A DNA stretch of 64,000 nucleotides from a bacterium (lineage in GTDB: Bacteria; Patescibacteriota; Minisyncoccia; Phycocordibacterales; UBA5272). Location: the NCBI GenBank assembly GCA_023267595.1, contig JAHFNB010000001.1, positions 94,590 through 158,589 on the forward strand, written 5' to 3'. The position numbers and the translations under genes are program-made. Shown here piece after piece: positions 4,839 to 51,903 of the stretch (positions are counted from its first letter, which is position 1; every line of letters starts with the position of its first letter). Below the pieces are notes generated by a model. That model saw nothing but the letters and a program-made list of their open reading frames with translations, was not told where the DNA came from and ran no database searches.

Positions 4839-6038
4839 GTGTGTATGGATAAAGTTATTACAGATGAATCAAAAATTGAGGAACTACTTACTCGTGGTGT
4901 AGAAGAAGTTATTGTAAAAGATGAATTAAAACAGGCACTTTTGTCTGGGAAACAATTACGTATCAAATTAGGTGTAGACCCAACAGGAGGGAAAATACAC
5001 ATTGGTCGTGCAGTTCCTCTTCGTAAACTAAGAGAGTTTCAACGTCTCGGACACCAAATCGTTTTTATTGTTGGTGATTTTACTGCTCAAGTGGGGGATG
5101 CATCTGATAAAAGTGAAAAGCGCCCAATGCTTACACGGGCACAAATTGATGAAAATCTTAAAGATTATAAGAGTCAGATTTCTAAAATATTAGATATTAC
5201 AAAAACTGAGTTTGTTTATAATAATGATTGGCTCTCTAAATTAACTTTTGCAGAAATTGTGACACTAGCAGAGTGTTTTTCTGTACAACAAATGCTTGCG
5301 CGTCGTAATTTTAAAGAAAGATATGAACAAGGAAAAGAAATATCACTTCGTGAATTTTTATATCCAATAATGCAAGGATATGATTCTGTTGCGGTAAAAG
5401 CAGATGTAGAGATAGGTGGGTTTGATCAACTTTTTAATTTAAAAGCAGGAAGAATTATTCAGGAACATTATGGTATGCCGAAGCAAAGCATTGTAACTTT
5501 TACAATGCTTGAAGGAACAGATGGTAGAAAAATGTCTACATCTTGGGGGAATATCATTTCTATTGTTGATGAACCATTTGATATGTTTGGAAAAATAATG
5601 GCATTACATGATGATCTTATTATCAAATATTTTACATTGTGCACTGACGTTTCGCTAGAAGAGATAGAAGGATTTAAAAAAGAATTAGAAGGTGGAGCAA
5701 ATCCAAAAGATATAAAAATGAGATTAGCACTTGAAATTGTGACGCTGTACCATACAGAAAAAGACGCCTCTCTTGCAAAAAACTCTTGGATTGAAACTTT
5801 TTCAAAAGGTGGTGTCCCAGAAAAAGTGCCTGAAATAATAACTGAAGAAGGAAAAGAGATAGGAGATGTGGTTGTTGAAAATAATATTGTTGCATCAAAG
5901 ACTGCGTGGCGACGTCTAGTAGAGGATAAAGCAGTTGGAGACACAAATGGAAATATAGTTACTGATGTAAAAGAATTAGTTAAGAACGTGACTCTTAAAA
6001 TAGGAAAGAAGAGATTTGTAAAAATTATAGTGAAATAA
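4839..6038 (+). CDS. tyrS: Tyrosyl-tRNA synthetase
   Basis: GVDPTGGKIHIGRAVPLRKLREFQRLGHQIVFIVGDFTAQVGDAS aligns with the bacterial TyrRS HIGH region. YPIMQGYDS and KMSTS (KMSKS-like) are present. C-terminal S4-like segment ASKTAWRRLVEDKAV. Confidence 0.8.
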   Translation: MCMDKVITDESKIEELLTRGVEEVIVKDELKQALLSGKQLRIKLGVDPTGGKIHIGRAVPLRKLREFQRLGHQIVFIVGDFTAQVGDASDKSEKRPMLTRAQIDENLKDYKSQISKILDITKTEFVYNNDWLSKLTFAEIVTLAECFSVQQMLARRNFKERYEQGKEISLREFLYPIMQGYDSVAVKADVEIGGFDQLFNLKAGRIIQEHYGMPKQSIVTFTMLEGTDGRKMSTSWGNIISIVDEPFDMFGKIMALHDDLIIKYFTLCTDVSLEEIEGFKKELEGGANPKDIKMRLALEIVTLYHTEKDASLAKNSWIETFSKGGVPEKVPEIITEEGKEIGDVVVENNIVASKTAWRRLVEDKAVGDTNGNIVTDVKELVKNVTLKIGKKRFVKIIVK

Positions 6039-31795: not shown

Positions 31796-32029
31796 TTAAT
31801 TTTTTGGAAGAAAAGATTCAAAGTATTCACTCATACCAAAATATCCTAAGACGTGTACGAGGATAGTAATAACTATCGTTGCAACGATAGTTGCTCCAAC
31901 AAATGTTCCTACACCGCTCACTATTCCACGTAGGAAGGTAAATCTGTAAGAGTTTAATCTCTCTAAGAGGACTAATAACTTTGCCACGTTATCATTTAAA
32001 GATTCTGTAGTATCTGGTACATCTTTCAT
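31796..32029 (-). CDS. Small membrane protein (hypothetical)
   Basis: Two hydrophobic helices. ORF only. Confidence 0.35.
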   Translation of the reverse strand: MKDVPDTTESLNDNVAKLLVLLERLNSYRFTFLRGIVSGVGTFVGATIVATIVITILVHVLGYFGMSEYFESFLPKN

Positions 32030-32093
32030 ATAGTTTACAGTCTAGCATCTCTTGACTGATATACTGCCTCTAATACTATGCAAACAATAAAAA

Positions 32094-32927
32094 ATGAAAA
32101 AACTTTCTATTTTTATCATACTACTTTCTGTTAGCCTAGTTTGTATCTACATTGTTTTTGTTTCCAAAAATAATGTAGAACAGATTCCAGAAGAGAAAAG
32201 TAAGATACAGTTATCTGTTAAAACTTCATGGCAGATTCAGTTACAAGGTATTTTCGGTAAAGATAGAGATTCTAATCTCTACATAGTGGATCTCTTTGAT
32301 GTGAGTACTACAACAGTACATTCTCTTAAGAGTCGTGGTAAAGTTGTTATTTGTTATTTTTCTGCAGGGACTGGAGAAGATTGGCGTACAGATTATTGGA
32401 AATTTAAAGAAAAAGATATGGGTAAAAAACTTACAGATTGGCCAGGAGAAAGATGGCTAGATACAAAATCTCTACATGTTAGAGAAATAATGGTATCTCG
32501 ACTCGATATCGCAAAAGATAAAGGATGTGATGGTGTAGATCCTGATAACATAGATGCTTATAGTAATGATAATGGTATCTTACTTACAGCGGATACTCAA
32601 ATTAAGTACAATATATTCCTTTCGGAGGAGGCACACAAAAGAGGATTACTTATTGGTTTGAAAAATGATGTCTCACAAATTAAGTATCTGGTTTCATATT
32701 TTGATTTTGCAACTAATGAACAATGTTTTAAATTTAGTGAGTGTGAGGGGTATAGTATTTTCACATCACATAATAAACCAGTATTTGACATCGAATACGA
32801 TACTGTGTATAGTAATAATATTCATGGAAGGCGTGATGATCTTTGTCGATTAGCAGACACGATGAATATAAGGACAATTATTTCATCCAAAGAATTAGAC
32901 GGAAGATTTATATATTCATGTGATTAA
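32094..32927 (+). CDS. Putative glycoside hydrolase family 114-like (endo-alpha-1,4-polygalactosaminidase-like) secreted/anchored protein
   Basis: N-terminal TM/signal. VVICYFSAGTGEDWRTDYW...WPGERWLDTKS...GCDGVDPDNIDAY pattern typical of GH114/DUF297 TIM-barrels. Confidence 0.55.
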   Translation: MKKLSIFIILLSVSLVCIYIVFVSKNNVEQIPEEKSKIQLSVKTSWQIQLQGIFGKDRDSNLYIVDLFDVSTTTVHSLKSRGKVVICYFSAGTGEDWRTDYWKFKEKDMGKKLTDWPGERWLDTKSLHVREIMVSRLDIAKDKGCDGVDPDNIDAYSNDNGILLTADTQIKYNIFLSEEAHKRGLLIGLKNDVSQIKYLVSYFDFATNEQCFKFSECEGYSIFTSHNKPVFDIEYDTVYSNNIHGRRDDLCRLADTMNIRTIISSKELDGRFIYSCD

Positions 32928-33002
32928 GAAGAACTTTATATTATGAAAGATAAGTATTAGATTTTTCGTAACAGTCTATATACCAGTAACACACACAACA
33001 TT

Positions 33003-33620
33003 ATGAACTACAATACAATTGCATCACAGGAATCAATAGAAAAGACAATACAAGCACTTAATGAGCATGGTATAGAAGGACTCTTTGTGCAGACAAAAGA
33101 AGAAGCATTAGAGAAAATAAAGACACTTATTCCACAAGGTGTTTCAGTGATGAATGGATCTTCTCGCACTCTTGAACAAATTGGATTTATTGAATATTTA
33201 AAATCTGGGACACATGGTTGGAATAATCTTCATGAAACAATCTTTAAAGAACAAGATCCTATAAAACAAGCAGAACTTCGTAAGCAATCAGTTATTTCAG
33301 ATGTATATCTAGGAAGTGTACATGCTATAAGTGAGGAAGGAGAAGTAGTAATTGCATCTGCTTCAGGAAGTCAGTTACCACATATTGTATTTACATCACA
33401 ACATGTTATTTTTGTTGTTGGAACACAAAAAATTACACCTACATTAGAAGAGGCTATCACTCGATTAAAAGAGTATGTATTTCCGCTAGAAGATAAGCGT
33501 GCAAAAGATGTGGGATATGGTGGAAGTGCGATTTCAAAAATAGTAATTATTAACAGTGAGCCAAAGAAAATGGGAAGAAAAGTACAAGTAATCTTTGTCA
33601 ATGAAGAATTAGGATTTTAA
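33003..33620 (+). CDS. LUD-domain (DUF162, LutC-like) protein
   Basis: About 205 aa. Pattern consistent with the LUD domain. Moderate. Confidence 0.5.
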   Translation: MNYNTIASQESIEKTIQALNEHGIEGLFVQTKEEALEKIKTLIPQGVSVMNGSSRTLEQIGFIEYLKSGTHGWNNLHETIFKEQDPIKQAELRKQSVISDVYLGSVHAISEEGEVVIASASGSQLPHIVFTSQHVIFVVGTQKITPTLEEAITRLKEYVFPLEDKRAKDVGYGGSAISKIVIINSEPKKMGRKVQVIFVNEELGF

Positions 33621-33653
33621 GGATAGATTCCTCATATTGCTATACTCTCTGGT

Positions 33654-34262
33654 ATGCATCTTAGAGATACGTATAATCTGATAGCAGAGGAATGGCATAA
33701 AGATCATCAGACGGATGATTGGTGGTTAGAAGGAACCGATACATTCATTTCTCTTTTACAACAAGGAGATACCGTACTTGATGTTGGATGTGGTGGAGGA
33801 ACAAAGAGTAAGTATCTTTTAGAGCATGGATTGCGTGTCACTGGTATAGATTTTTCTGAAAAATTACTTGAAATTGCTAGGAAAGAAAATAAAGACGGCG
33901 AGTTTATACTTATGGATATGTATGATGTTAAAGATTTACATACAACATTTAATGGTATTTTTGCACAAGCATCATTACTTCATATTCCCAAAAAAGATTT
34001 TACAACAATTGTCTCTTTACTCGTATCACAGTTACAGCAAGATGGTTTACTTTATATAGCAGTGAAAATTTCTTCAGGAAAAAATACTCAAGAAGAAATC
34101 AAAGAAGAAAATAAATATGGCCACACATATACACGGTTCTTCTCATATTATTCTATGGATGAACTTATTGATGCGTATAAAAAATCTGGATTAGAAGTTG
34201 TATATACAAGTAGTAATCAAACAGGGAATAAAGAATGGCTACAAATCATAGGAAGAAAGTAG
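33654..34262 (+). CDS. Class I SAM-dependent methyltransferase
   Basis: Motif I VLDVGCGGGTKSKYL. Post-I acidic residue GIDFSE. Confidence 0.75.
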   Translation: MHLRDTYNLIAEEWHKDHQTDDWWLEGTDTFISLLQQGDTVLDVGCGGGTKSKYLLEHGLRVTGIDFSEKLLEIARKENKDGEFILMDMYDVKDLHTTFNGIFAQASLLHIPKKDFTTIVSLLVSQLQQDGLLYIAVKISSGKNTQEEIKEENKYGHTYTRFFSYYSMDELIDAYKKSGLEVVYTSSNQTGNKEWLQIIGRK

Positions 34263-34298
34263 GTTTTATCTCCCTTTGTAAGATGTTAGAATAGATCC

Positions 34299-34769
34299 AT
34301 GAATACAAAACATATTATTATTATCGTTGGTGCCATAGTTGTTATTGGTCTTTTGGGAATTATAGGCTCTAGTATCTATAAAAAATATACATATATAACG
34401 CCTAGTGAATTTGGAACAAGTACTCCTATTACCACGAAAACTGAAGGTATTTTACAAGGCTCAGTAACTGTTGGTCCAGTATGTACAAAAGAAATCAAAG
34501 AAAAATACCCAACGTTCTCATGTTTGCCAACTCCTGAGATGTATGCAGCAGCACATGTTTTGGTATATATGCCAGATAAAAAGACATTAGTAAAAACAAT
34601 TATTCCTGATGGGCAAGGAAAGTTCAGTATTGCTCTTCCAGAAGGTGAATATTTTATAGACATGATTCATCAACGAATGGGTGGAACAAAAGGAGTACCA
34701 ACAACAGTGACCATTGTTCATGCAAAACCTGTAACACTTAAACTGGATGTAGATACAGGGTTACGATAG
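34299..34769 (+). CDS. Membrane-anchored hypothetical protein
   Basis: N-terminal TM IIIIVGAIVVIGLLGIIGSSI, followed by a beta-rich domain. Confidence 0.45.
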   Translation: MNTKHIIIIVGAIVVIGLLGIIGSSIYKKYTYITPSEFGTSTPITTKTEGILQGSVTVGPVCTKEIKEKYPTFSCLPTPEMYAAAHVLVYMPDKKTLVKTIIPDGQGKFSIALPEGEYFIDMIHQRMGGTKGVPTTVTIVHAKPVTLKLDVDTGLR

Positions 34770-34772
34770 AGT

Positions 34773-35219
34773 ATGTCATCACAAGAAGTAATTTTCTTCT
34801 ACGAACATGAGTATTATATGTTTTCTAACTTCTCTTCATTTGCTCTAGAGTGGAAAGGAAACGTATGGATGACGAGTGAACATGTCTATCATTCTGAACG
34901 ATTTGATAATGAAGAAATAAAAGAAAAAATAAGGAATATGCGTTCAGCGCACGAAGTATTCAGATTTGCTCAAGATAATAAATATCTCCAAATAAGCAAT
35001 TGGAATGAAATAAAGGTGGAGATTATGAAAGAAATTGTACGAGAAAAAATTGTTCAACATCCATATGTGAAAAAGAAATTGCTAGAGTCTGGCAGTAGAG
35101 AACTGATTGAAGATTCACCTCATGATGATTTCTGGGGATGGGGGAAAAATAAAGATGGAAAAAATCAGTTAGGAAAGATTTGGATGGAATTACGAGAAGA
35201 AATAAAAAAGACTACATGA
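34773..35219 (+). CDS. NADAR-domain protein (YbiA/DUF1768-like)
   Basis: FFYEHEYYMFSNFS...WMTSEHVYHSERF...DDFWGWG matches NADAR family hallmarks. Confidence 0.7.
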   Translation: MSSQEVIFFYEHEYYMFSNFSSFALEWKGNVWMTSEHVYHSERFDNEEIKEKIRNMRSAHEVFRFAQDNKYLQISNWNEIKVEIMKEIVREKIVQHPYVKKKLLESGSRELIEDSPHDDFWGWGKNKDGKNQLGKIWMELREEIKKTT

Positions 35220-35812
35220 AGCATATAAAAATTGGTGTAGATATGGATGAAGTATTGTGTGAACTTTTTCTTAGTCTGACTGACCGTTTCAATACCATTA
35301 ATGGTACATTTCATAATGTGCGTGATATACAACATTATGATTTAGAAAAATTGTATGGATGTACAAAAGAAGAATTAGGAGGGCTTCTGCGAGAGTTTTT
35401 TATCAGTAAAGACCATACAACCATGGTCCCGATTGTTGGAGCATTAGAAGGTATTGAAAAAATTAAAGACTTTGATCTTATTATTATAAGTGCAAGACCA
35501 GAACATACCAGAAATAAAACAGAGGAGTGGCTACATAAACATTTTCCAAATATATTTTCAGATATTCATTTAATTGGCGACCCAAGTGGACTAGGAGGCA
35601 TGGCTTTATCAAAAGGAGAATTTGCAAAAGAACTAGGTATACAAGTTTTTATAGAAGATTCATTAACAAATGCAAAAAATATAGCATCGTACGGTATCCC
35701 AGTTCTCCTTCTTGATAGAACGTGGAATCAAGGGGAGTTACCACCCCTTGTTACACGAGCATTTTCTTGGGAAGAAGCAGTATCTTTTATACAGAAAATG
35801 TTTAGAAAGTAG
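35216..35812 (+). CDS. HAD-superfamily 5'(3')-deoxyribonucleotidase-like protein
   Basis: Begins MKHIKIGVDMDEVLCELF (DxDxV/T motif). Overlaps the NADAR stop by 4 nt (ATGA). Confidence 0.65.
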   Translation: MKHIKIGVDMDEVLCELFLSLTDRFNTINGTFHNVRDIQHYDLEKLYGCTKEELGGLLREFFISKDHTTMVPIVGALEGIEKIKDFDLIIISARPEHTRNKTEEWLHKHFPNIFSDIHLIGDPSGLGGMALSKGEFAKELGIQVFIEDSLTNAKNIASYGIPVLLLDRTWNQGELPPLVTRAFSWEEAVSFIQKMFRK

Positions 35813-35827
35813 TGGTATACTTTTCTT

Positions 35828-36232
35828 ATGAGTGAAACTTCTGCATTCCCACGTGTGCATATGGATATGTATCCAAAACTTGTAAAAGAAGGAGTATTTA
35901 TTTTTGATGATGAAGTATGGAGTACACAAAAACGTATTGCACGTATTTACGGACGAAGTATTCCAACAGTAAATGATCATTTAAAGAAGATTTATAAAGA
36001 AAAAGAATTAATAAAAGCAGGGTCTGAACGAGTACTCGTTATTACACAACAAGAAGGAAAGAAAAAAGTTTCTCGTAACATTTATGTGTACAACACGGAT
36101 GTTGTCATTGCTATTGGATTTCGTGTAAAAGGGGAATGGGGAAAACAGTTTCGTATTTGGGCACGTGAAGTAGTACGAGCAAGTTATGATCCAAAGGAAC
36201 AAATCCGTCATCTAACGGGGAGGAAAAACTAA
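35828..36232 (+). CDS. RhuM-family (virulence protein RhuM-like) N-terminal fragment
   Basis: VLVITQQEGKKKVSRNIYVYNTDVVIAIGFRVKGEWGKQFRIWAREVV matches the RhuM core. Only 134 aa, against about 330 for full-length RhuM. Confidence 0.55.
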   Translation: MSETSAFPRVHMDMYPKLVKEGVFIFDDEVWSTQKRIARIYGRSIPTVNDHLKKIYKEKELIKAGSERVLVITQQEGKKKVSRNIYVYNTDVVIAIGFRVKGEWGKQFRIWAREVVRASYDPKEQIRHLTGRKN

Positions 36233-43120: not shown

Positions 43121-44239
43121 GTGAATAACACTATCGGTGTTTTTAGTCAGAATGATTTAAAGAAGATGGTTGAAAATCGTCGCTTAGTACCATGTGAGGG
43201 ATTTTCTCCCGAACATATTGGTACGGCATCCGTTGATTTGACTTCGACTGGAGAAGCATATCAACTTCGCCGGTTATTTCAACCAAGTCAAATCAAGAGT
43301 GAATCTATTCGCGATCTACTTCCTTTTATGGACCCTGAATCGAAACCCCTTGGGTCTACGCTTGAAGTTGGAAGCACAACAATAACCAAAGCAAGTCTCG
43401 AACCAAACTTTCCGCCGGGTATTTACGGATATCTGAATGCAAAATCAAGTTCTGGTAGGAATTTTCTTTTTGCAAGATCACTTGCAGATGGTCAGAACAT
43501 GTTTGATTCTGCAGATCGCCGTGAAAGGGGGTATTCCGGAGAATTATGGATCGTTATTCAACCATTAGCCTTTCCAGTTATTCTTACCAATAAGGAAAGG
43601 TATGATCAGTTGCGAGTATTTAATGGTGATACGCGATTCAAACAACAAGATCTTGATAATCTTTTGCTCAATCACGATCTTTTGTATCGTAGGGAAACTC
43701 AAGAACCATACAAACACGGTGACCTATCACTGTTTACCCACGATGGTTCCATTCTTTGTACGCTTTATGCACCTGCTCGTGAACTCATTGGGTATCGTTG
43801 TAAAAAAAATACGCCACCGGTTGATCTTACAAGGAGAGATATTGATCCCAGAGATTATTTTGAGCCGGTGTATGCCGAGGAAAAAATAGTCGATGGTAAG
43901 AAAATAAGTTTCGTTAAGGTTGAAGGGGGTTACTATTACCTTCTTTCTACAAACGAAATGATTAAAGTTCCAGAGACACACACTGCAGAATTGGTAGCGC
44001 TTGATACACGGCTTGGGTTTTTCTTTAGTCATTTTGCAGGATTTTTCGATAACGGATTTTTCGGGACCGCAACACTCGAGATTTATTCTCCGTTTACGAT
44101 TTGGCTTCGGCATAAACAACCGGTTGCACGATTTGTTTTTGAAAAACTTCGCTCGGAAGCACCGTCGTATGGTGAAAAAGGGACGTATCAGTCACAGATT
44201 GAAACACAACTCCCTAAGCAATTTCTTCCGTGGGAATGA
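43121..44239 (+). CDS. dcd: 2'-deoxycytidine 5'-triphosphate deaminase (long-form DCD family)
   Basis: GTG start with GGAG RBS. The N-terminal region resembles dCTP deaminase. 372 aa. GC-rich. Confidence 0.6.
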   Translation: MNNTIGVFSQNDLKKMVENRRLVPCEGFSPEHIGTASVDLTSTGEAYQLRRLFQPSQIKSESIRDLLPFMDPESKPLGSTLEVGSTTITKASLEPNFPPGIYGYLNAKSSSGRNFLFARSLADGQNMFDSADRRERGYSGELWIVIQPLAFPVILTNKERYDQLRVFNGDTRFKQQDLDNLLLNHDLLYRRETQEPYKHGDLSLFTHDGSILCTLYAPARELIGYRCKKNTPPVDLTRRDIDPRDYFEPVYAEEKIVDGKKISFVKVEGGYYYLLSTNEMIKVPETHTAELVALDTRLGFFFSHFAGFFDNGFFGTATLEIYSPFTIWLRHKQPVARFVFEKLRSEAPSYGEKGTYQSQIETQLPKQFLPWE

Positions 44240-44289
44240 TTATAGGCAGGACCTCAAGAGTCCTGTTTTCTTTTTGGTATAATGAACAT

Positions 44290-44709
44290 ATGAAATTATT
44301 TGTTAAAAAAATGCGTGATGATGCGAGACTGCCGACACGTGCGCATCACGATGATGCAGGTATTGATTTGTATTCATGTGGTAATCATATTGTTCATCCA
44401 CAACAGACACTTATGATTCCAATTGGAATTGCACTTGAAATAGAAGAAGGTTATGTTGGTTTAATTTGGGATAAATCAAGTATTGGATCAAAAAGTATAA
44501 AAACATTAGGTGGTGTGATAGATGCAGGGTATCGGGGAGAATTAAAAGTAATGGTGCATAATTTAAGTAATGAATCCTACACATTTGAACATGGTCATAA
44601 AGTAGCACAGATAGTAATTCAAAAAGTAGAATTTCCAGACATAGTTGATACAAAAGAATTATCGGATTCAAAACGAGGAACAGGAGGATTTGGAAGTACG
44701 GGGAAATAA
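44290..44709 (+). CDS. dut: dUTP diphosphatase (dUTPase)
   Basis: dUTPase motifs AGIDLYS, GLIWDKSSIG, GVIDAGYRGE and RGTGGFGSTG. Confidence 0.85.
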   Translation: MKLFVKKMRDDARLPTRAHHDDAGIDLYSCGNHIVHPQQTLMIPIGIALEIEEGYVGLIWDKSSIGSKSIKTLGGVIDAGYRGELKVMVHNLSNESYTFEHGHKVAQIVIQKVEFPDIVDTKELSDSKRGTGGFGSTGK

Positions 44710-44742
44710 AAAAGAGGCCATAATGCTTGTAGCCTCTTTTTG
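44708..44742. terminator. Bidirectional terminator between dut and the thyX-like gene
   Basis: aaaagaggc-cataatgcttgta-gcctctttt. Confidence 0.6.
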
Positions 44743-44752
44743 AAGTATCGAA

Positions 44753-45793
44753 CTATTCCTCAAATGCGAGGATGAAATCTACGAGAGCCTCATCACCACG
44801 ACAACCAATAAGCAGTTCCTCTCGTGAGATGAGTTTTGTGAAGTCATCTTCTGAAGGGAGTGTTTTTCGGTATTGTGTCCACACTTCGGAATAGTTACCA
44901 TTACTTCCAATAGGATCACTTTCTTCACGTGGGCGTGCTGGGTGTTCGAATGGGGACATATGGCCACTTGCTTGCAAATCGTTCGCCAGACTAACATCCT
45001 TGTCAAGTGCACGAATACCATCATGAGTTAGATAACTGGTCCGTGCACATTTTCCAGAAGAGGCTCTGGCCAAAACTAACTGGTCTTTTTCTTCTGCCTT
45101 GTCTTCTTCTCGAATGTATGGGAGATGCCATTCTCCTTTAGAAAGTTTTATAGGAGAACTGTTCATCATTGCACGTGCAATTGCAATACCGAAGTCTTGT
45201 GCTTCTGGTTGAGCCTTTGCACTCGGGCGGAGACCGAAAAAATTTCTCCAGTACGACGAAGTCACAATGACGACGTGAAAGGCGTATGTTTCCAAAACAC
45301 GATTTGCATGCTGCTTATGGAGTCCTTGGTCTTGAGATGAAAAAAACTGACCCATACCATATTTTTTTACCATCTCTTCAAGTTCTGCACAGAGTTTCTC
45401 TGCGGCCGGATTTTTTTTTGAATCCTTCAGGATCTGATCATATCCGCCGACGAGGAACATTGCTTGAATCACAGCAATATCTCTTCCGGTTAACCAGTTG
45501 GCAACTGCTTTTTTCTTGTCATTATCGGAAAGTTCCAGTTCAGCCTGCATCCCTGCCTTGTTCACTCCGAAGGAGTGAGGAATATAGGGATTTTTCAAGA
45601 CAGAAAGCAAACGTTTCCAGACAGGAATTGCACGCGAACTCGCAGAATTTCTTGCGAATTTTCTGTGTGTATTGAATTCGGCAAGATAGGGCCGAGGAAA
45701 TTCGACCTCGACAGAAGTCAAGCGAGATCTTTTATAGGAACTGTCGCAGATGATGCGAGCAGAGGCTTTCCCTTCAGTGTGAAGTTCTTGCAT
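44753..45793 (-). CDS. thyX: Flavin-dependent thymidylate synthase ThyX-like protein (atypical motif order)
   Basis: THRKFARNSASSRAI approximates RHRxxSxNxxSxRY. AQPEAQDFGIAIARAMM approximates AQxEIRxxA. A HMSPFEH motif occurs near the C-terminus rather than the N-terminus. ATG at 45793 has an AGGAG RBS. The track ORF starts at TTG 45808. Confidence 0.55.
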   Translation of the reverse strand: MQELHTEGKASARIICDSSYKRSRLTSVEVEFPRPYLAEFNTHRKFARNSASSRAIPVWKRLLSVLKNPYIPHSFGVNKAGMQAELELSDNDKKKAVANWLTGRDIAVIQAMFLVGGYDQILKDSKKNPAAEKLCAELEEMVKKYGMGQFFSSQDQGLHKQHANRVLETYAFHVVIVTSSYWRNFFGLRPSAKAQPEAQDFGIAIARAMMNSSPIKLSKGEWHLPYIREEDKAEEKDQLVLARASSGKCARTSYLTHDGIRALDKDVSLANDLQASGHMSPFEHPARPREESDPIGSNGNYSEVWTQYRKTLPSEDDFTKLISREELLIGCRGDEALVDFILAFEE

Positions 45794-45952
45794 GATTACT
45801 CCTAACAATTGGTTATTAAAAGGACTGTAGTATTAGAAACAACTTCTCAAACTCTACATGAAAACATAATGATAAGCAAATCTTGTCAAAAGTTACTTTT
45901 ATTTGTATTTGTAGTACGATATCTTGTGTAGAAGTTCATTCAATTAAGGGGA

Positions 45953-46540
45953 ATGATCATGTCCGCAAGACTTGCACCGTTTATTGTTTTTTGTGGAATT
46001 GATGGTTGTGGAAAGACATCAGCCATCAAAGCAGTAGGGGAGAAATTTCCCACGGTAGATACTACACGAGAACCAGGAGGTACTCCTCTTGCAGAAAATA
46101 TCCGCAACTTACTCTTATCAGAAAAAGGAGGGATACTTTCTCCTTTAGAGCAAATGCACCTTTTCTTTGCGGGGCGTCACATTCATATTCATGAAAGGAT
46201 TCTTCCAAAAAGAAAGAGTGGCATTCCAGTAGTTTCTGATCGTTTTGATGGAAGTACATTCGCTTTTCAACGTTGCCTTAGTTTGGTTGCAGAGAAAATA
46301 GAAATTAACCAACCACTGTACGAAGAATTTTTCCGTTTGCGTGAACAAGTAGTACATCATTGTGAACCTTCTCTTTATATCTATTTAGAAGTTGATCCGG
46401 TAATTGGAATGAGAAGGCGCGCTTTTGCACGTGAACAAGAACTTAATCATTTTGATTTGGCGAATATCGAAGAACAAAAACGCCGAGCAGTTTCGTACCG
46501 TACCTTTTTTAAACATATACGTACGCGGGGTATCTCGTGA
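45953..46540 (+). CDS. tmk: Thymidylate kinase
   Basis: FIVFCGIDGCGKTSAIKAV P-loop. TREPGGTPLAENIR. Confidence 0.75.
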   Translation: MIMSARLAPFIVFCGIDGCGKTSAIKAVGEKFPTVDTTREPGGTPLAENIRNLLLSEKGGILSPLEQMHLFFAGRHIHIHERILPKRKSGIPVVSDRFDGSTFAFQRCLSLVAEKIEINQPLYEEFFRLREQVVHHCEPSLYIYLEVDPVIGMRRRAFAREQELNHFDLANIEEQKRRAVSYRTFFKHIRTRGIS

Positions 46541-48462: not shown

Positions 48463-51400
48463 ATGTCAGAGTCTAAGAATGTACCAAAGAGTATCAATGA
48501 AAAAGAGTTAGAAACACTTGCTTTTTGGCAGGAACATACAATATTTGAAAAGTCAGTAGAGACTCCTGCAGGTGATGTACCAAAAGGTAGTTTTTCTTTT
48601 TATGATGGTCCTCCATTTGCAACAGGGCTTCCTCATCATGGAACACTTATGGCAGGTACGGTAAAGGATATTATTCCGCGATATCAAACAATGAAAGGAA
48701 ATAGTGTTCGTCGTAAGTGGGGGTGGGATTGTCATGGTCTTCCAATAGAAAATCTAATTGAGAAGAAATTAGGATTAAAGAGTAAAAAAGATATTGAAGA
48801 CTTGGGTATTGCTACGTTTAATAAACATGCACAAGACAGTGTTCTTCAGTATGAATCAGAATGGAAAGAAATAATTCCTCGATCTGGAAGATTTGTCGAT
48901 ATGGATCATGATTATAAAACAATGGATGCAACATATACCGAGAGTGTATGGTGGGCATGGAAAACATTATACGAAAAAGGACTTGCCTACGAAGGATATA
49001 AAATGATGCATATTTGTCCACGTTGTGAGACCACACTTGCACAATCAGAAGTAGGAATGAACTACGAAGATGTTACTGATTTATCAGTAACTGCAAAGTT
49101 TGAACTTACTGATGAACCACAGACATTTGTTCTTGCATGGACAACAACACCGTGGACTCTTCCGGGGAATACGGCACTTGCTCTTTCACAAGATGCAGAG
49201 TACCTAAAAATAAGAGTAGGTGGAATGGAAGGAATGTATATTCTCGCGAAAGAAAGAATTGCTGATGTTCTTCAAGAAAAAAATTATGAAGTTATAGATA
49301 CGTTTAAGGGTTCGAAACTTATTGGTAAGTCATATAAACCAGTATTTCCATATTTTATTAATACAGAGATTGATAATAAAGAAAATATTTGGAAAATATG
49401 GCATGCAGATTTTATTACCCTAGATACAGGGACAGGTATTGCACACGAGGCACCCGCATTTGGTGCAGATGACATGGAACTCGCAAAGCAACATTCTATT
49501 CCTGTGATCAAGCATGTGCTTATGGATGGAACATTTACACACGATGTTACTGATTTTGTTGGCATGAAGGTAAAAAAAGTCGGAGATACGCAATCTGCTG
49601 ATATTGAAATCATTAAATATCTCGCACACAGTGGATCCTTATTTGAAAAACATAAAATAGTTCATTCCTATCCACTGTGTTGGCGATGTAAAACACCACT
49701 TCTTAATTATGCAACGTCGAGTTGGTTCATTGATGTGCCAAAAATGAAACCAACATTATTATCTGAGAATCAAAAAATAGGTTGGACTCCAGAACATATT
49801 CGTGATGGTAGATTTGGTAAATGGCTAGAAGGGGCACGTGAATGGGCAGTATCTCGTACTCGTTACTGGGGAGCGCCACTTCCTGTATGGAAAAATAAAG
49901 ATGGTGAATTGCTCGTTATCGGTTCTCTTAAAGAACTTGCAGAAAAAAATAAACAAAAAGTAAAGAATATATACTTTGTAATGCGTCATGGAGAAGCAGA
50001 GAGTAATGTAAAAGGTATTATTGATAGTAGTGGAGACACGACTAATGGGCTTACAGAAAAAGGCAAAGAACAAGTACGTACAGAAATAAAAAATCTTTCT
50101 CAGAAAATTGATCTTATTATCTCGTCTCCATTTTTACGTGCACAAGAAACAGCAGAGATTGTACGACAAGAATTGGGAGATGTTCAAATTATAGTTGATG
50201 AGAGATTGAAAGAGTTTCAATTAGGTATTTTCGACAAAAAACCAATAGAAGAATATTATAAAGTATTTTCCTCAATCACCTTAGATACGGTAATTACAGG
50301 AGGTGAAACTCATCGTGATATGTTCACACGTGCAATGTCAGTATGGAATGATTTGGAAAAGAAATATGAAGGAAAAAATATTCTGATAGTAACACATGGT
50401 GGTCCAGCATGGATGTTAACTGTCGGTACATCACTGATCACTGATGAAGCAATTAATGAATCAATGAAACATCTTGGTACTGGAAATTGGGTTCCAAATG
50501 CAAAGATTATCCCTCTAGAACCCCTCATTGTTCCACGAGATGAGACTGGAAACATAAATCTTCATCGTCCATACATTGATGAAGTAGAACTAGAAGTTGA
50601 TGGTGTTACATATACAAGAATTCCTGATGTGTTTGATTGTTGGTATGAGTCAGGTGCTATGCCATTTGCATCTCTTCATTATCCATTTGAAAATAAAGAT
50701 ATTTTCGATAAAAATTATCCAGCAGATTTTATTGCGGAAAGTATGGATCAAACACGAGGATGGTTTTATTCACTTATAAACTTAGGGGTAGGGCTATTTG
50801 ATAAAGCACCGTACAAACACGTTATTGTAAATGGGCTTATCAATGCAGCAGATGGGAAAAAGATTAGTAAAAGTTTAAATAACTATACTGATCCATTAGA
50901 ATTAATTGCAAAGTATGGAGCAGATGCATTTCGTCTTTACCTCATGTCTAGTTCTGTAGTAAAAGGAGAAAGTGTTAATTTTAAAGATGAGGATCTCGAT
51001 GGTGTTTACAAACGTTGTATTCTTAGACTAGAGAATGTTATGTCTCTCTACGAAATGAATAAACCAGAATCTGTGATACCACTATCTTCTTCAGATCATA
51101 TTCTTGATATGTGGATTATAAGTAGGCTTCATGAAGTTATTCAAGAGGCAACGCATGGATTTGATACGTATATGCTCGATGATGCAGTACGACCGTTTGA
51201 TCAGTTTATTGATGATGTTTCTGTTTGGTATATACGACGTTCACGTGAACGATTAAAAGGGGACTCTGGAGAAGAAGATCAAAGGATGGCCTACGGGACT
51301 CTCACTTACATATTACAAACGTTTGCAAAGACTATTGCACCAGTTATGCCATTTATTGCAGAGCGTCTTTACAAGCAATCAGGAGGAGAAAAAGAGTCTG

Positions 51401-51903
51401 TTCATCTCGAAAAATGGCCAAGTATAGGAGAGATTCATGAAGGTATACTTGCGGAAATGAAAATGGTTCGTGATGTAGTTTCACTTGGACTCATGAAGCG
51501 AACAGAAGTAAAGATAAATGTGAAACAACCGCTACTTTCTATTATGCTTAAACAAGATATTAATCCTAAGTATTTTGACGTTATCAAAGATGAATTGAAT
51601 GTAAAAAATGTTTTTATTCACGCCTCACAATCAGATGAAGTTAAACTTGATACCACAATAACTGAAGCATTACAAAAAGAGGGAGATATTCGCAAACTTA
51701 TTCGTGCTATACAAGATGCACGAAAAGAAAAAGGATTATTGCCACAAGATAGTATTGTGTTAACCTTATCTTCTGTTAGTGGTCTTGGGAATATTTCATT
51801 ACTTATTGCTACATGTAAAATCTCTGAAACAAGAGAAGATGCAAGTATTAAAGATAATTCGGTAGAATTATCTTCTGGAATTATATATTTTTCTATTGTC
51901 TAA
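48463..51903 (+). CDS. ileS: Isoleucyl-tRNA synthetase with an embedded histidine-phosphatase (PGAM-like) domain
   Basis: IleRS signatures PFATGLPHHGT, WTTTPWTLPGN and KISKS. The residue 502-687 segment carries RHGEAESN, SPFLRAQET and IVTHGG phosphatase motifs, in-frame. Confidence 0.85.
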   Translation: MSESKNVPKSINEKELETLAFWQEHTIFEKSVETPAGDVPKGSFSFYDGPPFATGLPHHGTLMAGTVKDIIPRYQTMKGNSVRRKWGWDCHGLPIENLIEKKLGLKSKKDIEDLGIATFNKHAQDSVLQYESEWKEIIPRSGRFVDMDHDYKTMDATYTESVWWAWKTLYEKGLAYEGYKMMHICPRCETTLAQSEVGMNYEDVTDLSVTAKFELTDEPQTFVLAWTTTPWTLPGNTALALSQDAEYLKIRVGGMEGMYILAKERIADVLQEKNYEVIDTFKGSKLIGKSYKPVFPYFINTEIDNKENIWKIWHADFITLDTGTGIAHEAPAFGADDMELAKQHSIPVIKHVLMDGTFTHDVTDFVGMKVKKVGDTQSADIEIIKYLAHSGSLFEKHKIVHSYPLCWRCKTPLLNYATSSWFIDVPKMKPTLLSENQKIGWTPEHIRDGRFGKWLEGAREWAVSRTRYWGAPLPVWKNKDGELLVIGSLKELAEKNKQKVKNIYFVMRHGEAESNVKGIIDSSGDTTNGLTEKGKEQVRTEIKNLSQKIDLIISSPFLRAQETAEIVRQELGDVQIIVDERLKEFQLGIFDKKPIEEYYKVFSSITLDTVITGGETHRDMFTRAMSVWNDLEKKYEGKNILIVTHGGPAWMLTVGTSLITDEAINESMKHLGTGNWVPNAKIIPLEPLIVPRDETGNINLHRPYIDEVELEVDGVTYTRIPDVFDCWYESGAMPFASLHYPFENKDIFDKNYPADFIAESMDQTRGWFYSLINLGVGLFDKAPYKHVIVNGLINAADGKKISKSLNNYTDPLELIAKYGADAFRLYLMSSSVVKGESVNFKDEDLDGVYKRCILRLENVMSLYEMNKPESVIPLSSSDHILDMWIISRLHEVIQEATHGFDTYMLDDAVRPFDQFIDDVSVWYIRRSRERLKGDSGEEDQRMAYGTLTYILQTFAKTIAPVMPFIAERLYKQSGGEKESVHLEKWPSIGEIHEGILAEMKMVRDVVSLGLMKRTEVKINVKQPLLSIMLKQDINPKYFDVIKDELNVKNVFIHASQSDEVKLDTTITEALQKEGDIRKLIRAIQDARKEKGLLPQDSIVLTLSSVSGLGNISLLIATCKISETREDASIKDNSVELSSGIIYFSIV

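What the first reader, a model, noticed from the sequence alone, without database searches (positions are those of the whole stretch)
34773..35812. Translationally coupled NADAR-domain protein and 5'(3')-deoxyribonucleotidase-like HAD phosphatase
The NADAR ORF (hallmarks YYMFSNFS, SEHVYHSERF and DFWGWG) ends in ATGA. This overlaps the start codon of a HAD-type nucleotidase with the DMDEVL motif.

NADAR domains act as N-glycosidases on riboflavin intermediates. They have also been reported to reverse ADP-ribosylation of nucleic acids, acting as antitoxin-like partners of DarT-type enzymes. Pairing with a dNMP phosphatase suggests a two-step unit for nucleotide or ADP-ribose damage processing, or for salvage. 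It is not a standard operon I recognise.
Basis: partly seen in the sequence, partly recalled or inferred. Interest (0 to 1): 0.5.

Follow-up and report, generated by a model that had tools for sequence, protein, structure and literature searches.

The report
Adjacent NADAR and nucleotidase-like genes
Two ordinary enzyme genes, a YbiA-type NADAR glycosidase and an NT5C-like HAD phosphatase, overlap by four bases in a compact Patescibacteria genome, but they sit together in only a few close relatives, so this is probably local gene order and not a dedicated two-enzyme system.

Summary
A 148-aa NADAR ORF (34773..35219) ends in a TGA that overlaps the ATG of a 198-aa HAD ORF (35216..35812).

Both family calls hold. 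The first protein is a YbiA-subfamily NADAR with the diagnostic glutamate. The second is an NT5C-like HAD phosphatase with all four HAD motifs and an NT5C-like predicted fold.

The functional inference is weak.
- The HAD lies within 5 kb of the NADAR gene in 2 of 80 NADAR loci from other species genomes.
- NADAR lies near the HAD gene in 0 of 80 metagenomic HAD loci.
- There is no co-occurrence in 94 viral loci.
- Among the 11 closest HAD lineages, NADAR is immediately upstream in 3.
- The closest NADAR relative (75% identity, same flanks) has no HAD. Three relatives have the HAD at that position without an adjacent NADAR.

The stable anchor in this clade is a short RhuM-N gene, a FAD oxidase and a TPR protein. 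NADAR, HAD and a rhodanese come and go in the slot upstream of it.

Four-base overlaps are common in this window, including between unrelated genes. No DarT or other ADP-ribosyltransferase was detected in the part of the window that was scanned.

Verdict: real genes, probably co-transcribed, with a lineage-restricted adjacency. A metabolic link through NAD or ADP-ribose remains possible but unproven.

The parts
34773..35219 (+). YbiA-subfamily NADAR gene (148 aa), a bare single-domain protein
   Evidence: PF08719 E=1.2e-30, covering the full profile. TIGR02464 scores 103.7 bits against a cut-off of 73.7. E. coli YbiA (2B3W) matches at E=3.7e-25. E36, E113, D118 and W121 are invariant in 26 orthologues.
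35216..35219 (+). ATGA stop/start overlap between the NADAR and HAD genes
   Evidence: Read directly from the sequence. The ATG start is supported by the N-termini of most of the 13 homologues. This is one of three 4-nt overlaps among 53 same-strand gene pairs in the window.
35216..35812 (+). NT5C-like HAD phosphatase gene (198 aa); substrate unknown
   Evidence: PF06941 E=2.5e-11, 44.2 bits against a cut-off of 24.8. phrog_420 E=9.9e-26. HAD motifs: D9/D11, S92, K133, E147-D148. AlphaFold2 pLDDT is 91.8. The best Foldseek matches are 3BWV and human mdN/cdN.
35828..36232 (+). Short (134 aa) RhuM N-terminal-domain gene. It is the stable downstream neighbour and syntenic anchor, not part of an enzymatic pair.
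   Evidence: PF13310 E=1.8e-12, covering only profile positions 6-53 of 252. PADLOC PDC-S05 E=3.6e-31. It is conserved next to the convergent FAD oxidase in L004, L005, L009, L014, L065, L167, L172, L173 and L174, and is also present in L169, whose contig ends before a FAD oxidase could be seen.
32094..36232 (+). Tightly packed array of seven genes on the same strand (GH114, LUD, methyltransferase, 156-aa hypothetical, NADAR, HAD, RhuM-N) with gaps of 75 nt or less
   Evidence: ORF coordinates and Pfam families. No convincing internal promoter or terminator: promoter-like sites are fewer than in shuffled sequence, and no + strand terminator-like site lies inside the array. NADAR is only 3 nt from the unrelated upstream hypothetical gene.

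Best explanation
These are two independently acting, single-domain enzymes that lie next to each other in a compact Patescibacteria (Paceibacteria-like) chromosome. They are probably co-transcribed within a longer same-strand gene array.

The NADAR is a YbiA-type ribosyl N-glycosidase. By family precedent it cleaves the N-glycosidic bond of ADP-ribosyl-guanine, or of ribosylamine-phosphate small molecules. It is under strong purifying selection across Patescibacteria and is normally a stand-alone gene.

The HAD is an NT5C-like Mg-dependent phosphatase. It most likely removes the phosphate from a nucleoside monophosphate through an aspartyl-phosphate intermediate on D9.

The adjacency reflects a clade-specific variable slot upstream of a conserved RhuM-N / FAD-oxidase / TPR block. 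NADAR, HAD and a rhodanese are gained, lost or rearranged individually in that slot. The ATGA overlap follows from genome compaction and is not evidence of an obligate partnership.

Shown: the ORFs, the family membership, conservation of the catalytic residues, the neighbourhood statistics and the synteny. Inferred: the substrates, co-transcription and functional independence.
For: Family membership.

NADAR orthologues are 58-75% identical across Patescibacteria. All but one of the best 120 listed are single-domain proteins, and 341 relatives were found in species genomes.

No conserved NADAR neighbour exists. The largest neighbour cluster covers 5 of 80 loci.

The HAD is within 5 kb in 2 of 80 NADAR loci, 77 of which have at least 700 nt of downstream sequence. 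NADAR is within 5 kb in 0 of 80 HAD loci, 67 of which have at least 500 nt of upstream sequence. It is absent from all 80 viral NADAR loci and all 14 viral HAD loci.

In the syntenic block, the closest NADAR (75%, L167) and L004, L005, L009 and L014 have NADAR followed directly by RhuM-N with no HAD. L169, L172 and L173 have HAD followed by RhuM-N with no adjacent NADAR. L065 has CTP synthase between the two genes.

Overlaps are common in the window and also join unrelated genes, such as TsaE/Pol I and a transporter/tRNA synthetase (with gene families).

No NADAR+NT5C fusion appears among the listed homologues.
Against: The pair is adjacent in three HAD lineages that are 44-58% identical (window, L174, L164). 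In L164 the flanking genes are completely different: sugar epimerase upstream and flavodoxin-like downstream. The L164 NADAR is divergent (51% identical to the window's) although its HAD is the window's closest relative (58%). This could mean the juxtaposition arose or was kept more than once.

More distant members of the same HAD subfamily sit in a pncB-nadE-HAD array in another clade. NADAR is linked to NAD and ADP-ribose metabolism in the literature (PMC9503650). A shared pathway is therefore plausible.
Confidence: 0.65

Rival explanations
1. A genuine small two-step module for NAD- or ADP-ribose-derived nucleotide processing or salvage. The NADAR cleaves a ribosyl N-glycosidic bond in ADP-ribosylated guanine or in a pyridine or other (deoxy)ribonucleotide derivative. 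The HAD then dephosphorylates the nucleotide or phosphoribosyl product, or prepares the substrate. The module is optional, so either gene can be lost.
For: Stop/start overlap.

Adjacency is retained in L174 (4-nt gap) and L164 (12-nt gap) at only 44-58% HAD identity, and L164 has unrelated flanks.

The HAD and NADAR trees are not congruent, which is compatible with repeated juxtaposition.

Relatives in the same HAD subfamily are coupled to nadE, downstream of pncB, in about 14 metagenomic loci.

NADAR sits next to NAD-salvage genes in phages. An analogous pairing of an ADP-ribosylglycohydrolase with a HAD 5'-nucleotidase has been proposed in PMC9503650.
Against: Co-occurrence is 2/80, 0/80, 0/80 and 0/14 in the wider surveys.

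Each gene is present without the other at the same locus in close relatives.

No fusion proteins were seen.

The pncB-nadE-HAD operon comes from one clade whose HADs are 58-91% identical to each other and only 28-34% identical to the window's. Transferring its substrate to the window protein is unsafe.

No NAD-salvage genes were seen among the window's annotated genes.
Confidence: 0.25
2. A conflict or defence element. The NADAR would act as an antitoxin or anti-ADP-ribosylation enzyme, as in DarT1-NADAR or YarT-YbiA. The HAD and the RhuM-like protein would be accessory parts of a defence island.
For: NADARs reverse guanine ADP-ribosylation, and YbiA-type NADARs can be antitoxins for YarT (PMC11125620).

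The RhuM-N protein hits the PADLOC candidate family PDC-S05 at E=3.6e-31, and the NADAR weakly hits PDC-M42C at 8.2e-07.

Both enzymes have PHROG relatives.
Against: No ART, DarT or YarT-like gene is adjacent. None was detected in the window genes with precomputed Pfam families (about 4.8-64 kb) or in the 16 window proteins scanned against PADLOC.

The NADAR scores 65 bits against the anti-phage NADAR model NF053876, whose cut-off is 240.

The locus lies among housekeeping genes and is syntenic across relatives, which is not island-like.

NADAR is near-universal and highly conserved in the clade, unlike sporadic defence genes.
Confidence: 0.05
3. A riboflavin-pathway damage-control N-glycosidase, the classical YbiA role, paired with a phosphatase of that pathway.
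For: TIGR02464 ('riboflavin biosynthesis intermediates N-glycosidase') is above its cut-off. The closest solved structure is E. coli YbiA.
Against: No riboflavin genes appear in the window or in the 80 orthologue neighbourhoods.

From general knowledge, not tested here: Patescibacteria typically lack cofactor biosynthesis.

TIGR02464 is a domain-level model, and all tested NADAR subtypes also hydrolyse ADPr-guanine (PMC11125620).
Confidence: 0.05

Closest known systems
E. coli YbiA / the YbiA subfamily of the NADAR superfamily (PF08719; PDB 2B3W)
   Same: A bare single-domain protein of about 150 aa. It aligns with YbiA end to end (E=3.7e-25). It has the subfamily-defining glutamate in the last strand (E113) and the conserved E36, D118 and W121.
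   Different: It is not in a LexA-controlled dinG-ybiB operon, not fused to or near riboflavin genes, and not next to a YarT toxin. It sits in a Patescibacteria genome, where its physiological substrate is unknown.
DarT1-NADAR (DarTG1) toxin-antitoxin system
   Same: The same protein superfamily, and probably the same basic chemistry (hydrolysis of the ribosyl-guanine N-glycosidic bond).
   Different: That subfamily (BC4488) has an aspartate at the diagnostic position and an N-terminal extension, and is encoded next to DarT1. Here the residue is a glutamate, there is no extension, and no DarT or ART gene was detected in the scanned part of the window. The match to 8BAU, the other solved NADAR (apparently the stand-alone P. 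nicotianae enzyme), is only E=2.7e-05.
5'(3')-deoxyribonucleotidases cdN/mdN and bacterial NT5C-like proteins (PF06941; PDB 3BWV, 1MH9, 2I7D)
   Same: HAD core with a small helical cap. Motif I is DMDEVL, against DMDGVL in cdN/mdN. These are the best structural matches (TM 0.7-0.8).
   Different: Identity to solved members is only 14-20%. This subfamily has its own conserved C-terminal WNQGELPP...R..SWEE motif. Substrate-specificity residues were not assessed. No NCBIfam model matches.
ARG (ADP-ribosylglycohydrolase) with a phosphatase or HAD 5'-nucleotidase, as proposed neighbourhoods in PMC9503650
   Same: The same concept: an ADP-ribose-releasing hydrolase placed beside a nucleotidase-type phosphatase.
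   Different: The hydrolase fold differs (ARG, not NADAR). Those neighbourhoods are described as widespread and include other components. The present pair is seen in only a handful of related genomes.

Membership tests
NADAR superfamily (PF08719) | Profile match above the curated threshold over the whole domain | tested here: met
   PF08719 scores 107.4 bits against a cut-off of 35.1, covering profile 1-163/163. TIGR02464 scores 103.7 against 73.7.
YbiA subfamily of NADAR | Glutamate in the last beta-strand (aspartate in BC4488/DarT1-linked members, histidine in phage gp30.3), as defined in PMC11125620 and PMC11543638 | tested here: met
   E113 in LIEDS aligns with the E of VEH in E. coli YbiA and with the E of LYE in 8BAU. 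It is invariant in 26 orthologues.
YbiA subfamily of NADAR | Conserved active-site residues equivalent to P. nicotianae E43, D130 and W133 | tested here: met
   E36, D118 and W121 align to the corresponding residues of chain 8BAU. The equivalence assumes that 8BAU is the P. nicotianae enzyme and that its numbering is offset by 2; both points are my inference. All three residues are invariant.
YbiA subfamily of NADAR | N-glycosidase or ADPr-guanine hydrolase activity | not testable with these tools
   Needs an enzyme assay.
DarT1-NADAR or YarT-YbiA toxin-antitoxin pair | An adjacent ADP-ribosyltransferase toxin gene | tested here: not met
   The neighbours are a 156-aa hypothetical protein with no hits and a HAD phosphatase. 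The Pfam families on record for the window genes from about 4.8 kb to 64 kb include no ART or DarT family. PADLOC gave no DarT hit for 16 window proteins. Bases 1 to about 4,800 and the rest of the genome were not examined.
NADAR anti-phage protein (NF053876, DS32_2) | Equivalog model above its cut-off | tested here: not met
   65.3 bits against a cut-off of 240.
NT5C family of HAD phosphatases (PF06941) | Profile match above the curated threshold | tested here: met
   44.2 bits against 24.8, residues 4-192.
NT5C family of HAD phosphatases (PF06941) | HAD catalytic motifs I-IV (DxDx[TV]; S/T; K; [DE]D) | tested here: met
   D9, D11, K133 and D148 are invariant. E147 is conserved in at least 90% of the 14 aligned sequences. 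S92 lies in the IISAR motif II position; one member, P0134, has G there.
NT5C family of HAD phosphatases (PF06941) | NT5C-type fold (Rossmannoid core with a helical cap) | tested here: met
   The AlphaFold2 model has pLDDT 91.8 and pTM 0.89. The best Foldseek matches are 3BWV (TMt 0.81) and human mdN (TM 0.72-0.74).
NT5C family of HAD phosphatases (PF06941) | Specificity for 5'(3')-deoxyribonucleotides | not tested
   Base- and sugar-recognition residues were not compared. At 14-20% identity to solved enzymes, transferring specificity is unsafe.
   2/80, 0/80, 0/80 and 0/14 in the broad surveys. NADAR is immediately upstream in 3 of 11 close HAD lineages. The two genes occur separately at the same locus.

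The most novel reading that the evidence does not exclude
In a few Paceibacteria lineages, a YbiA-type NADAR and a previously uncharacterised NT5C-like HAD subfamily form an optional two-enzyme cassette. The same HAD subfamily is coupled to pncB-nadE in another clade. The cassette would process NAD- or ADP-ribose-derived ribosyl nucleotides: the NADAR cleaves the N-glycosidic bond and the HAD removes the 5'-phosphate. This would give nucleotide-scavenging episymbionts a salvage or detoxification route that has not been described.
Probability: 0.15. Interest if true: 0.4.

Novelty: new member of a known kind. Interest (0 to 1): 0.2.

Why it matters
As it stands it matters little. These are two routine members of large enzyme families whose adjacency is a local feature of one small clade.

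If the minority reading were true, it would give a first physiological context for the very highly conserved stand-alone NADAR of Patescibacteria. Those organisms are thought to lack riboflavin synthesis, so the substrate of this enzyme is an open question. It would also assign a pathway to an uncharacterised NT5C-like HAD subfamily.

The more useful general result is a caution. In these compact genomes, a 4-nt stop/start overlap is not by itself evidence of functional coupling.

Tried and rejected
1. DarT-antitoxin reading. Rejected. The NADAR is the YbiA (Glu) type, no ART or DarT family was found in the scanned window genes, and the anti-phage NADAR model scores far below its cut-off.

2. 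Prophage or island origin. Rejected. The flanks are housekeeping genes and the block is syntenic across relatives. Viral contigs carry NADAR relatives at 42-56% identity, but never with the HAD. GenBank phages have only remote HAD relatives of about 30% identity.

3. Fusion ('Rosetta stone') evidence. None among the 120 listed NADAR homologues or the 14 HAD homologues. The one NADAR fusion is to PF07866, not to a HAD.

4. Search for any conserved NADAR neighbour in 80 genomes and 80 viral contigs. Nothing exceeded 5-7 loci.

5. Promoter and terminator scan of 31.5-38.2 kb. Promoter-like sites were fewer than in shuffled sequence (19 against a mean of 29.6). The five terminator-like sites gave no + strand site inside the array. 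The scan was uninformative.

6. L068 looked like a second adjacent pair. The NADAR there is split into two ORFs, the HAD ORF is truncated at 144 aa, and an extra NADAR C-terminal fragment follows. It is either decayed or misassembled and is counted only with a caveat.

7. NJ trees of NADAR and HAD. They are incongruent, but they have no support values and few taxa. I treat them as a hint only.

Full report
**1. What is in the sequence**

Its TGA stop (35217-35219) overlaps an ATG at 35216-35218. That ATG opens a 198-aa ORF, MKHIKIGVDMDEVL..., which ends at 35812.

The mechanical ORF list extends the second ORF back to TTG 35180. Thirteen homologues aligned with it mostly begin at the equivalent of the ATG, and one public gene call of the identical sequence uses it (L003). 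The ATGA overlap is therefore real.

The window is a core chromosomal segment of a low-GC (about 36%) bacterium. Its close relatives are annotated as Parcubacteria, Nomurabacteria, Paceibacterota or Patescibacteria MAGs. The identical sequence lies on an 88-kb ENA metagenome contig. The surrounding genes are housekeeping: Pol I, RuvABC, tRNA synthetases, ribosomal proteins, NusG/SecE, dCTP deaminase, dUTPase, ThyX, Tmk and NDK.

**2. Family assignments**

*The first protein is a NADAR of the YbiA subfamily.*
- PF08719 matches at E=1.2e-30 (107.4 bits, cut-off 35.1) over the whole profile.
- TIGR02464 scores 103.7 bits against a cut-off of 73.7.
- The closest solved structure by sequence is E. 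coli YbiA (2B3W, E=3.7e-25). The other NADAR structure in the PDB, 8BAU, matches only at E=2.7e-05.
- The literature defines the YbiA subfamily by a glutamate in the last strand. DarT1-linked BC4488 NADARs have an aspartate there and phage gp30.3 proteins a histidine. DarT association is reported as exclusive to BC4488 (PMC11125620; PMC11543638).
- In the window protein that position is E113 (LIEDS). E113, E36, D118 and W121 are all invariant across 26 Patescibacteria orthologues. They align to E125, E43, D130 and W133 of the P. nicotianae enzyme. I infer this from the 8BAU alignment, assuming 8BAU is that enzyme with a 2-residue numbering offset.
- The anti-phage NADAR model NF053876 is far below threshold (65 bits against 240).

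*The second protein is an NT5C-like HAD phosphatase.*
- PF06941 matches at E=2.5e-11 (44.2 bits, cut-off 24.8) over residues 4-192.
- phrog_420 matches at E=9.9e-26. No NCBIfam model matches.
- HAD motifs I-IV are present: D9/D11, S92, K133 and E147-D148.
- An AlphaFold2 model built from the 14-sequence alignment is confident (pLDDT 91.8, pTM 0.89).
- Its best PDB matches are the S. epidermidis deoxyribonucleotidase-like protein 3BWV (TMt 0.81) and human mitochondrial and cytosolic 5'(3')-deoxyribonucleotidases (TM about 0.7), at 14-20% identity. The profile search gives the same result.
- Substrate specificity cannot be transferred at that distance.

**3. Is the overlap special?**

No. I used the public gene calls for this contig to compute gaps. 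Of 53 same-strand neighbouring pairs, 7 overlap, 3 by exactly 4 nt, 23 have gaps of 25 nt or less, and the median gap is 36 nt. The overlapping pairs include functionally unrelated genes: TsaE/Pol I, Pol I and an unknown 209-aa protein, and an AI-2E transporter and a tRNA synthetase (gene families).

The NADAR gene is only 3 nt downstream of an unrelated 156-aa hypothetical gene. The HAD gene is 15 nt upstream of a RhuM-N gene. Seven same-strand genes from 32094 to 36232 are packed with gaps of 75 nt or less. The consensus promoter and terminator scan was uninformative.

**4. Does the pair recur?**

*Broad surveys*
- NADAR orthologues are abundant. 341 relatives were found in GTDB species genomes, and the best 80 loci were fetched with 5-kb flanks.
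- An HMM of the HAD subfamily finds the HAD in only 2 of those 80 loci, although 77 have at least 700 nt of downstream sequence.
  - In L065, CTP synthase sits between the two genes.
  - In L068 the NADAR is split, the HAD truncated, and an extra NADAR fragment follows.
- In the other direction, 0 of 80 metagenomic loci encoding HAD relatives (26-46% identity) have a NADAR within 5 kb. 67 of them have at least 500 nt of upstream sequence.
- 0 of 80 viral NADAR loci have the HAD, and 0 of 14 viral HAD loci have a NADAR.
- Clustering the neighbours of the 80 NADAR genome loci finds no family in more than 5 loci. This NADAR is essentially a stand-alone gene.
- No NADAR+NT5C fusion appears among the listed homologues.

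*Closest relatives*

Look-ups of the nearest HAD homologues and the nearest NADAR homologue show a more structured picture.

A block of RhuM-N, a convergent FAD oxidase, a TPR protein and p236 is conserved in this clade. The slot just upstream of RhuM-N varies:

| Arrangement upstream of RhuM-N | Loci |
|---|---|
| NADAR-HAD-RhuM-N | window; L174/L175 (HAD 44% identical) |
| NADAR-RhuM-N, no HAD | L167 (NADAR 75% identical, the closest relative); L004, L005, L009, L014 |
| rhodanese-HAD-RhuM-N, or X-HAD-RhuM-N, no adjacent NADAR | L169, L173, L172 |
| NADAR-CTP synthase-HAD-methyltransferase-rhodanese-RhuM-N | L065 |

Outside this block:
- The HAD most similar to the window's (P0122, 58%) lies directly downstream of a NADAR in L164. 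The flanks there are quite different: sugar epimerase and dehydrogenase genes upstream, and a flavodoxin-like gene downstream.
- P0123 lies downstream of an RNA-methyltransferase gene (PF04452). P0124 has a 96-aa ORF on the opposite strand upstream. P0130 lies downstream of a periplasmic-binding-protein gene. None of these has a NADAR next to it.

In total, 3 of the 11 close HAD lineages whose upstream sequence can be read have a NADAR immediately upstream. Each gene also occurs without the other at the same chromosomal position.

**5. Points in favour of a functional link**

I do not dismiss these.
- Adjacency is retained at 44-58% HAD identity, and once with unrelated flanks (L164).
- Simple NJ trees are incongruent. 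The window's HAD is closest to L164's (58%), but their NADARs are only 51% identical. The window's NADAR is 75% identical to that of the HAD-less L167. This could reflect more than one juxtaposition. The trees have no support values and few taxa.
- About 14 of the 80 metagenomic HAD loci show a pncB (NAPRTase)-nadE (NAD synthase)-HAD array, with nadE and the HAD overlapping or abutting, followed by a convergent murC. These HADs are 58-91% identical to each other, so they represent one clade. They are only 28-34% identical to the window protein.
- NADAR was named for its link to NAD and ADP-ribose. It is reported next to NAD-salvage genes in phages. An analogous pairing of an ADP-ribosylglycohydrolase with a HAD 5'-nucleotidase has been proposed (PMC9503650).

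Together these keep alive a reading in which the pair handles NAD- or ADP-ribose-derived nucleotides. I put that at about 0.25.

**6. Best explanation**

These are two independent, probably co-transcribed enzymes in a compact genome. One is a YbiA-type ribosyl N-glycosidase with an unknown physiological substrate. The other is an NT5C-like nucleotide phosphatase. Their adjacency is a clade-specific arrangement in a variable slot, and the ATGA overlap is a by-product of compaction (confidence about 0.65).

The DarT-antitoxin or defence reading is unlikely, at about 0.05.
- The NADAR belongs to the wrong subfamily.
- No ART was detected. The Pfam families on record for the window genes from about 4.8 kb to 64 kb, and PADLOC scans of 16 proteins, show none.
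- The locus is not island-like.

The classical riboflavin role is also unlikely in this host, at about 0.05. No rib genes appear nearby. That Patescibacteria generally lack cofactor biosynthesis is my own background knowledge and was not tested here.

**7. Novelty and interest**

Both genes are new members of known families. The pairing is not a described system, but it is not shown to be a system at all. Interest is low (0.2).

The one open question it touches is what the strongly conserved NADAR of Patescibacteria does. It is 58-75% identical across the best 120 homologues. This locus does not make that question much more tractable.

Noticed in passing
window 48463..51903 (+): The class I (apparently isoleucyl-) tRNA synthetase (1146 aa) carries a full histidine-phosphatase domain (PF00300, E=6.5e-31, residues 505-653) between the two matched stretches of its catalytic core. 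In five loci labelled Saccharibacteria (for example L079, 5456-7582), a large ORF that looks like a class I tRNA synthetase with a long insert lies directly downstream of NADAR. That ORF was not scanned against Pfam.
   Followed up: partly
L105, L111, L116, L123, L127, L129, L135, L140, L146 and others (HAD at about 5001-5560 in full-flank loci): Members of the same NT5C-like HAD subfamily, 28-34% identical to the window protein, form a pncB (NAPRTase)-nadE (NAD synthase)-HAD array, with nadE and the HAD overlapping or abutting, followed by a convergent murC. This is seen in about 14 of 80 metagenomic loci, all from one clade (HADs 58-91% identical to each other). It suggests a role in NAD salvage for that branch.
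   Followed up: partly
window 35828..36232 (+): A 134-aa protein matches only the N-terminal part of the RhuM family profile (PF13310 positions 6-53 of 252) and the PADLOC candidate family PDC-S05 (E=3.6e-31). It is conserved as a short gene next to a convergent FAD-linked oxidase in many relatives, and its stop overlaps the oxidase stop by 4 nt. It is probably a stand-alone DNA-binding domain and not a pseudogene.
   Followed up: partly
window 43121..45808: A nucleotide-metabolism cluster. A large dCTP deaminase (DCD_N/DCD/DCD_C, 372 aa) overlaps a 157-aa dUTPase by 4 nt. A ThyX-like gene follows on the opposite strand, and thymidylate kinase (45953..46540) lies just beyond. The genome does invest in dNTP pool handling, about 8 kb from the HAD.
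   Followed up: no
L068 1210..2423: In one MAG contig the NADAR is split into two ORFs, the adjacent HAD ORF is truncated at 144 aa, and a further 63-aa NADAR C-terminal fragment follows. This is either a decaying copy of the pair or a misassembly.
   Followed up: partly
window 34299..34769 (+): A 156-aa ORF lies 3 nt upstream of NADAR. It has what looks like a hydrophobic N-terminal segment and no match in Pfam, NCBIfam, PHROGs or PADLOC. Homologues occur elsewhere in relatives (L169, L174) but not next to NADAR.
   Followed up: partly
window 32001..36000: GC content is slightly lower here (0.327-0.333) than in the surrounding 2-kb bins (0.36-0.39). The region coincides with the gene array from GH114 to RhuM-N.
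   Followed up: no
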